From: Parvularia atlantis
Lineage: Eukaryota
Length of the DNA stretch: 36,877 nt
Reading direction: 5' to 3'
Assembly: GCA_943704415.1 (NCBI GenBank)
Contig: CALSCO010001536.1
Coordinates: forward strand, 1 to 36,877
Both the position numbers and the translations under genes were made by a program. Positions 23,006 through 23,126 of this stretch are shown piece by piece. Under the pieces are notes generated by a model, which saw nothing but the letters and a program-made list of their open reading frames with translations, did not search any database and was not told the DNA's origin. Within the stretch, counting starts at the first letter, position 1, and every line of letters starts with the position of its first letter.

Positions 23006-23119
23006 GCAGTCGTGGTGTAGTGGTTATCACATGGGCCCCGGGTCTGCCCGAGCCGTGACGTTGTCTTACATTTTTGAGAGGAGCACAAACGGTCGCGCGT
23101 TCGAACCGCGCCGGCTGCA
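23006..23119 (+). tRNA. tRNA-Val(UAC) with two introns: non-canonical 27/28 (23033-23060) and canonical 37/38 (23071-23083)
   Basis: Joining 23006-23032, 23061-23070 and 23084-23119 gives a 73-nt cloverleaf. Acceptor GCAGTCG/CGGCTGC+A; D arm GTGT-AGTGGTTA-TCAC (A box); anticodon stem TTTGT/ACAAA with loop CT-TAC-AC; T arm GCGCG-TTCGAAC-CGCGC (B box). Confidence 0.9.
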
Positions 23120-23126
23120 TTTTTTT
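23120..23126 (+). terminator. RNA polymerase III terminator (T7)
   Basis: T run immediately after the tRNA discriminator base. Confidence 0.85.

What the first reader, a model, noticed from the sequence alone, without database searches (positions are those of the whole stretch)
23006..23126. Two-intron tRNA-Val(UAC) with a non-canonical 27/28 intron bounded by an archaeal-type bulge-helix-bulge-like motif
Seen in sequence: a 28-nt insert (23033-23060) separates T27 from the rest of the anticodon stem, and removing it restores a perfect TTTGT/ACAAA stem. The boundaries deduced from the cloverleaf coincide with BHB geometry. TCAC (23027-23030) pairs with GTGA (23055-23058) as a 4-bp central helix, each strand followed by a 3-nt bulge cut after its second base (AT/G and CG/T). 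The intron-side hairpin is GGC..CGGG-TCTG-CCCG..GCC, and the exon-side outer helix is weak, so this is a relaxed BHB/BHL form. A second 13-nt intron at 37/38 has the C32:G antepenultimate A-I pair, leaving a 10-nt middle exon that carries the anticodon. Established: ectopic or multiple BHB introns are typical of archaea and are known in Cyanidioschyzon, some prasinophytes and nucleomorphs, whereas yeast and animal TSEN normally cuts only at 37/38. Inference: this probable opisthokont protist splices by a structure-dependent route, and standard tRNA scans would miss or call such genes pseudogenes. The A and B boxes, the stems and the terminator are intact, which argues against a pseudogene.
Basis: partly seen in the sequence, partly recalled or inferred. 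Interest (0 to 1): 0.93.

Follow-up and report, generated by a model that had tools for sequence, protein, structure and literature searches.

The report
Archaeal-style intron in amoeba valine tRNA
A valine tRNA gene of Parvularia atlantis, an amoeba related to fungi, carries an ordinary intron plus a 28-base insert in its anticodon stem whose ends match the bulge-helix-bulge cut signal of archaeal introns, so it is likely spliced by RNA shape, something reviews say the tRNA-splicing enzyme of animals, fungi and their kin does not do.

Summary
Window 23006-23119 is a tRNA-Val(UAC) gene with a 13-nt intron at 37/38 and a 28-nt insert at 27/28. Of 14 possible 28-nt cuts, only this one restores a 5/5 anticodon stem, and only this one has the archaeal bulge-helix-bulge (BHB) geometry: 4 Watson-Crick central pairs, 3 inner, 2 outer. 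Chance is about 1-3 in 10,000 for the strict form and up to 4 in 1,000 relaxed. A neighbouring protein is 100% identical to a Parvularia atlantis record, so the host is a nucleariid opisthokont. Reviews say the four-subunit endonuclease of this supergroup cuts only at 37/38; I found no opisthokont case in nine searches. Not shown: no spliced RNA, no relative with the insert, no genome-wide tRNA set, no view of the enzyme. Against: a T5 run inside intron 2 could stop Pol III early, and the BHB is not the lowest-energy whole-precursor fold (also true for 37 of 46 archaeal controls). Verdict: probably a real ectopic BHB intron (0.65), a known kind of intron in a lineage thought to lack it; a dead gene remains possible (0.25).

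The parts
23006..23032 (+). Exon 1 (tRNA positions 1-27): acceptor 5' strand, D-arm with A box, A26, T27
   Evidence: positions 8-25 identical to three canonical-intron Val-type genes L008, L009, L020 (14 of the 18 letters were demanded by the search pattern)
23027..23030 (+). 5' strand of the 4-bp central helix H (also the 3' strand of the D-stem in the mature fold)
23033..23060 (+). 28-nt insert at 27/28, predicted ectopic BHB intron; internal hairpin of 3 + 4 G-C-rich pairs
   Evidence: excision inferred, not observed
23055..23058 (+). 3' strand of the central helix H
23061..23070 (+). Exon 2 (positions 28-37), 10 nt, anticodon TAC at 23067-23069
23071..23083 (+). 13-nt canonical intron at 37/38 with C32:G anticodon-intron pair; opens with T5
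23084..23119 (+). Exon 3 (positions 38-73): anticodon stem 3' strand, 5-nt variable loop, T-arm with B box, acceptor 3' strand, discriminator A73
23120..23126 (+). T7 run, Pol III terminator-like

Best explanation
This is the tRNA-Val(UAC) gene of the nucleariid Parvularia atlantis, interrupted twice, and the 28-base insert at position 27/28 is likely a true intron that the tRNA splicing endonuclease would cut out by reading its bulge-helix-bulge shape. Shown: the two inserts, the perfect cloverleaf left when both are removed, the BHB geometry at the exact boundaries, the host. Inferred: Pol III reads through the internal T5 often enough to make a 114-nt precursor; positions 22-25 leave the D-stem and pair with the insert's 3' end; the two catalytic subunits cut after the second base of each 3-nt bulge without using the distance ruler; a tRNA ligase joins T27 to T28; the 37/38 intron is removed in the ordinary ruler-guided way, probably last by analogy with Cyanidioschyzon merolae (my energies do not settle the order). 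The 73-nt product would read GUA codons.
For: Two independent criteria pick the same two cut sites out of 14 registers and 4560 boundary pairs; nulls 1.4e-4 to 4e-3. Only 5 of 57 archaeal control genes have equal or better geometry. No sign of decay: acceptor 7/7, anticodon 5/5, T-stem 5/5 pairs, U8, A14, G18, G19, U33, A37, T-loop, A73 all present (drawing). The 45-nt junction folds into H plus inner hairpin as its minimum-energy form. GTA codons are in use: 4 of 123 Val codons in homology-aligned segments, plus two in kinesin exons. Only one record of DNA run X1 lay on the tRNA stretch at 80% likeness, so no second copy with these exons was seen. Eukaryotic endonucleases can splice archaeal-type BHB substrates in vitro (PMC4090602 section 5, citing Fabbri 1998 and Di Segni 2005). 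In C. merolae a strict BHB intron outside the loop is removed before the 37/38 intron (PMC3728597).
Against: No spliced product in the RNA-like run X2; its one contig here starts at 23069 and keeps intron 2. No relative with the insert among 38 metagenome hits, so no covariation. The whole-precursor ensemble gives H a probability near zero and forcing it costs 6.7 kcal/mol, at the top of the archaeal control range (median 3.45, maximum 6.9; 5 of 46 at 5 or more). The local fold is no more stable than shuffles (z +0.52). The 3' bulge starts with C where all 46 archaeal controls have A. Intron 2 opens with T5; four T suffice to end Pol III transcripts in vertebrates (10.1101/2024.02.05.577363 passages), and only 3 of 21 comparison intron-bearing tRNA genes have an internal T5, all in low-GC arrays. 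Reviews state that the four-subunit enzyme removes only 37/38 introns (PMC10485636 sections 6-7).
Confidence: 0.65

Rival explanations
1. The gene is dead or nearly so: an insertion at 27/28 (or early termination at the internal T5) blocks maturation, another Val(UAC) gene or a wobbling Val(IAC) reads GUA, and the BHB match is luck or a relic.
For: No spliced RNA seen. Internal T5. BHB absent from the global fold. Short insertions in eukaryotic tRNA arms are usually read as pseudogene marks (PMC4090602 section 5). The genome could not be searched, so a divergent Val(UAC) gene is not excluded. The locus lies between two divergent protein genes, where Pol III boxes could be kept for another role (inference).
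Against: A chance insert reaches this geometry in about 1-3 of 10,000 trials (4 of 1,000 at the most lenient); no stem or invariant base has decayed; no second copy with these exons was laid from X1 (its filter drops some records); none of 55 distinct chance or canonical viral hits put through the same test reached four central pairs.
Confidence: 0.25
2. The insert is removed, but by another route (a spliceosome-type or IRE1-type cut, or a dedicated duplicated endonuclease), or the gene is read as another tRNA with one long intron.
For: Earlier notes of this scan report spliceosomal introns in fungal tRNA anticodon stems (unchecked leads). ARAGORN reads the unspliced gene as Ser(tga) with one 33-nt intron, score 103.6.
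Against: The insert begins GG and ends CG; none of 42 GT/GC..AG deletions inside the gene gives a Val tRNA or beats 111.2, and the best are Pro readings without U33. The window's mRNA introns are about 50-90 nt with GT..AG ends. One-intron readings break the anticodon stem. IRE1-type cutting was not tested.
Confidence: 0.08
3. Assembly artefact.
For: X1 may be the source of the window, so it is not independent of the reads.
Against: An 18,967-nt contig of X1 crosses the locus with no difference or gap at depth 214.6, like its flanks; an artefact would not build a BHB.
Confidence: 0.02

Closest known systems
Ectopic and multiple BHB introns in nuclear tRNA genes of Cyanidioschyzon merolae (Soma et al. 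2013, PMC3728597; parts 1-2 of 6 read, figures not seen)
   Same: Nuclear tRNA gene with a strict BHB intron outside 37/38 plus a weaker 37/38 intron (like its tRNA-Phe); intron length within its 11-69 nt range; missed by standard scans.
   Different: Red alga versus opisthokont. The text lists ectopic introns in D-stem, D-loop, variable arm, T-stem and T-loop, none in the anticodon stem. There splicing was shown by RT-PCR and most genes are disrupted; here one gene is known and splicing is inferred. [quoted passage not shown]
Non-canonical BHB introns of archaeal tRNA genes (Thermoproteota, Nitrososphaerota, Bathyarchaeia)
   Same: Same 3-4-3 geometry and cut rule; same region of the tRNA. 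In my control set of 57 distinct Val genes the inserts sit at 25/26 (40) and 28/29 (17).
   Different: None of the 57 sits at 27/28; archaeal 3' bulges start with A in 46 of 46, here C; archaeal enzymes are symmetric and ruler-free.
Guillardia theta nucleomorph and Chondrus crispus atypical tRNA introns (PMC4090602 section 5; PMC13578239 passages)
   Same: Eukaryotic tRNA genes with two or three introns at non-canonical sites, in the nucleomorph also in the anticodon stem-loop.
   Different: Red-algal lineage; some nucleomorph introns are as short as 3 nt; exact positions are in figures I could not see, so 27/28 may occur there.
Canonical 37/38 introns cut by the four-subunit TSEN of yeast and human (PMC10485636 sections 6-7)
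   Same: Intron 2 fits this class: position 37/38, 13 nt, C32:G anticodon-intron pair.
   Different: Intron 1 breaks the stated rule that such enzymes remove only 37/38 introns and that such genes have one intron.

Membership tests
Eukaryotic cytosolic tRNA-Val(UAC) gene | Cloverleaf with intact stems and invariant bases once inserts are removed | tested here: met
   73 nt, score 116.4
Eukaryotic cytosolic tRNA-Val(UAC) gene | Anticodon UAC with A73 and a Val-type D-arm | tested here: met
   (the D-loop is also shared with Gln genes)
Eukaryotic cytosolic tRNA-Val(UAC) gene | A box, B box and downstream T run, with no terminator inside | tested here: inconclusive
   boxes and T7 present, but T5 at 23071-23075; the host's terminator length is unknown
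Eukaryotic cytosolic tRNA-Val(UAC) gene | Mature, charged tRNA is made | not testable with these tools
   only contigs of long RNA were available; no spliced product
BHB-type (endonuclease-spliced) ectopic tRNA intron | 4-bp central helix between two 3-nt bulges, cuts after the second bulge base, at the boundaries that restore the cloverleaf | tested here: met
BHB-type (endonuclease-spliced) ectopic tRNA intron | Flanking helices (inner and/or outer) of two or more pairs | tested here: met
   inner 3 Watson-Crick pairs, outer 2 pairs; 39 of 57 archaeal controls have no outer pair
BHB-type (endonuclease-spliced) ectopic tRNA intron | Motif forms in the precursor | tested here: inconclusive
   local minimum-energy fold yes; whole precursor no, as in 37 of 46 archaeal controls
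BHB-type (endonuclease-spliced) ectopic tRNA intron | Pairing conserved or covarying in relatives | tested here: inconclusive
   no relative with the insert found
BHB-type (endonuclease-spliced) ectopic tRNA intron | Excision by the splicing endonuclease | not testable with these tools
   needs RNA or enzyme data
Canonical 37/38 eukaryotic tRNA intron (intron 2) | Position one base 3' of the anticodon and anticodon-intron pair with the third-last base | tested here: met
Spliceosomal intron in a tRNA gene | GT or GC start and AG end at boundaries that restore the tRNA | tested here: not met

The most novel reading that the evidence does not exclude
Parvularia, and perhaps other nucleariids, hide a whole set of ectopic and multiple BHB tRNA introns, processed by a splicing endonuclease that has regained or never lost ruler-free cutting. 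This would be the first such system on the animal-fungal side of the tree and would mean that tRNA annotation of opisthokont protists has been missing essential genes.
Probability: 0.3. Interest if true: 0.85.

Novelty: new variant of a known kind. Interest (0 to 1): 0.68.

Why it matters
A 2023 review states that in eukaryotes with the four-subunit endonuclease (animals, fungi, amoebozoans) tRNA introns lie invariably at 37/38, and asks which enzyme architectures restrict intron position (PMC10485636). A natural 27/28 BHB intron in a culturable close relative of fungi gives a direct test: either the ordinary four-subunit enzyme uses its known in-vitro BHB activity on a real tRNA, or this lineage changed the enzyme. 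The precursor can be put straight into yeast or human TSEN assays. It also shows that standard eukaryotic tRNA scans can miss or miscall such genes in opisthokont protists.

Tried and rejected
No whole genome was held, so the tRNA set and the SEN2/SEN34/SEN54/SEN15 genes could not be examined. ARAGORN and Rfam at gathering and E-value thresholds found nothing. A Raptor search did not place the organism (best hits chytrids and animals at 44-56%); the GOT1 exon did. Pattern scans for Val with an insert between D-stem and anticodon loop: 38 metagenome loci and 4 + 56 viral loci gave only canonical-intron tRNAs or chance matches. Spliceosomal reading rejected. The insert is not repeated in the window beyond one 12-base match. 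A B-box scan found no second tRNA gene in the window. Two papers searched for passages gave nothing on ectopic introns (PMC12168002; PMC12530127). Earlier-finding look-ups by genome, sequence and relatives were empty.

Full report
What is there. The sequence at 23006-23126 is as described. Removing 23033-23060 and 23071-23083 in a script leaves a 73-nt tRNA-Val(tac) with a 7-pair acceptor (one G-U), the usual three-pair D-stem, and 5-pair anticodon and T stems. ARAGORN's score of 116.4 is the best of 1326 trial deletions but is shared with two 26-nt deletions, and Gly readings come within one point, so the score does not fix the boundary. The stem does: among 14 possible 28-nt deletions only 23033-23060 gives five Watson-Crick anticodon pairs. 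Unaided tools fail on the gene: ARAGORN finds nothing, Rfam nothing at either threshold, and ARAGORN with introns calls it Ser(tga) with one 33-nt intron.

Is the BHB more than chance? At the boundaries fixed by the cloverleaf, the central helix has four Watson-Crick pairs, the intron-side helix three, the exon-side helix two (A-U, U-G), and both bulges are three bases with the cut after the second. Of 4560 boundary pairs within the gene, 12 pass a relaxed test and this is the only one with four Watson-Crick central pairs. Shuffling the insert gives the strict form in 27 of 200,000 trials and the relaxed form in 353; real 28-mers from the window give 19 and 98 of 73,698; allowing any of three neighbouring registers, 30 and 316. 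The signal is the register, not stability: the 45-nt junction folds into the central helix plus inner hairpin as its best form, but at frequency 0.28 and z +0.52.

A control from archaea. One scan of prokaryote genomes for Val genes with an insert between D-stem and anticodon loop gave 64 loci, 57 distinct and complete (7 dropped as duplicates or cut off); 40 inserts fall at 25/26, 17 at 28/29, none at 27/28; one (L053) looks like a bacterial chance match. Where several registers tied on the anticodon stem I chose the best BHB, which is circular for 45 of the 57; in the 12 with a unique register, 10 have four central pairs and all have at least three. Only 5 of 57 match or beat the window's geometry. 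In the whole-precursor fold the window's central helix has a probability near zero and costs 6.7 kcal/mol to force (2.7 once intron 2 is gone); 37 of 46 archaeal genes with four central pairs also have probability under 0.1, with median cost 3.45 and maximum 6.9. So the global fold does not refute the motif, but the window is at the unfavourable end. The 3' bulge starts with C here and with A in all 46.

The organism. A Raptor search was uninformative. An exon of the GOT1 gene just downstream of the tRNA is 100% identical to a protein held as EP00160_Parvularia_atlantis_P001333, an opisthokont of order Rotosphaerida; nucleariids are the deepest branch on the fungal side (abstract of 10.1101/2023.12.07.570557 in listing).

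Expression and copy number. DNA run X1 crosses the locus without a difference and may be the window's source; it was the only X1 record laid on 22950-23190 at 80% likeness, whereas the 8-kb call laid 170 records, many by short pieces, so a second copy with these exons would probably have shown (a filter drops some records, and a divergent isodecoder would not be seen). Run X2 behaves as RNA (its contigs skip mRNA introns) and has one contig from 23069 into GOT1 with intron 2 unspliced; it shows no tRNA junction, and long-RNA contigs are not expected to. GTA is rare but used: 4 of 123 Val codons in aligned Raptor and GOT1 segments, one at a position where the homologue has Val, and two more in kinesin exons. 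That GUA needs a UAC tRNA in eukaryotes is recalled knowledge.

Relatives. None found. All true tRNA hits among 38 metagenome loci and 60 viral loci from the Val patterns have ordinary loop introns. Three Val-type hits confirm the register of D-arm, position 26 and stem. No covariation evidence exists, which is the main gap beside the missing RNA data.

Points against. Intron 2 opens with five T. Four T end Pol III transcripts in vertebrates (passages of 10.1101/2024.02.05.577363); that yeasts need longer runs is recalled. The gene's own downstream run is T7. Three of 21 comparison intron-bearing genes have an internal T5, all in low-GC virus-like arrays. Insertions in eukaryotic tRNA arms are normally taken as pseudogene marks (PMC4090602 section 5). 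Together these keep a dead gene at about 0.25.

Mechanism. The best reading is cleavage by the host's tRNA splicing endonuclease at the BHB, independent of the ruler, followed by ligation, with the 37/38 intron removed in the usual way. Eukaryotic enzymes are reported to splice archaeal-type BHB substrates in vitro (PMC4090602 section 5; primary papers not read). In C. merolae the strict ectopic BHB goes first and 37/38 last (PMC3728597 part 2; PMC3978253 passages); here the fold with the central helix and the fold with the D-stem differ by only 0.3 kcal/mol in my hand-built structures, so the order is open. A spliceosomal route, suggested by earlier notes on fungal tRNAs, fails: no GT/GC..AG deletion of 42 gives a Val tRNA. 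Earlier notes also report BHB introns, one at 27/28, in giant-virus tRNAs; my scans did not recover that case, so it stays a lead, including for where this intron might have come from.

What is known. Ectopic and multiple BHB introns are described for archaea, C. merolae, Chondrus crispus and the Guillardia nucleomorph. PMC10485636 (passages, sections 6 and 7) says the four-subunit enzyme of animals, fungi and Dictyostelium can only remove 37/38 introns; PMC8450103 (passages) says eukaryotic tRNA genes are limited to one intron; 10.1101/2022.09.03.506465 and PMC10275265 (passages) describe the ruler mode. Nine literature searches listed no report of an ectopic tRNA intron in an opisthokont or of tRNA introns in nucleariids; the library lacks most subscription papers, and I saw no figures and no supplements, which could hold position lists that include 27/28. 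Whether Parvularia has all four subunits was not testable.

Verdict. Observation confirmed. It works like an archaeal or red-algal ectopic BHB intron and meets the structural tests for that class; excision is untested. New variant of a known kind, in a supergroup said to lack it. Confidence 0.65, interest 0.68.

Noticed in passing
window 23069-23285: A contig of the RNA-like run X2 starts inside the tRNA gene, keeps intron 2, crosses the T7 run and continues into GOT1 exon 1, leaving the DNA at that exon's end. The GOT1 transcript's 5' part seems to overlap the tRNA's 3' half; contigs cannot show the true start.
   Followed up: partly
window 23071-23075: T5 run at the start of the canonical intron, a possible early Pol III terminator; 3 of 21 comparison genes have one.
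   Followed up: partly
window 21404-22942 (-): Gene with a weak DUF1214 match (E 1.9e-6), a family I recall as mostly bacterial; transcribed away from the tRNA and GOT1; possible horizontal origin.
   Followed up: no
window 23252-23910 (+): GOT1 gene; its third exon is 100% identical to EukProt record EP00160_Parvularia_atlantis_P001333 and fixes the organism.
   Followed up: yes
window about 16000-20900 (-), 6577-9528 (+), 35843-36685 (-), 12061 onward (+): Ordinary intron-rich genes: Raptor, a kinesin with a C-terminal motor, a Rho1/RhoA GTPase and a secreted subtilisin-like protease (the last three named from recalled motifs).
   Followed up: no
L043-L106: Archaeal Val genes with BHB inserts cluster at 25/26 and 28/29; several (for example L049, L057, L073, L076) seem to carry a further insert in the D-loop, which shifts my assumed gene start and their folding numbers.
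   Followed up: no
L001, L002, L005, L010 and similar: Virus-like low-GC tRNA arrays with a 37-nt canonical intron in tRNA-Gln(UUG) and introns in neighbouring Thr genes.
   Followed up: no
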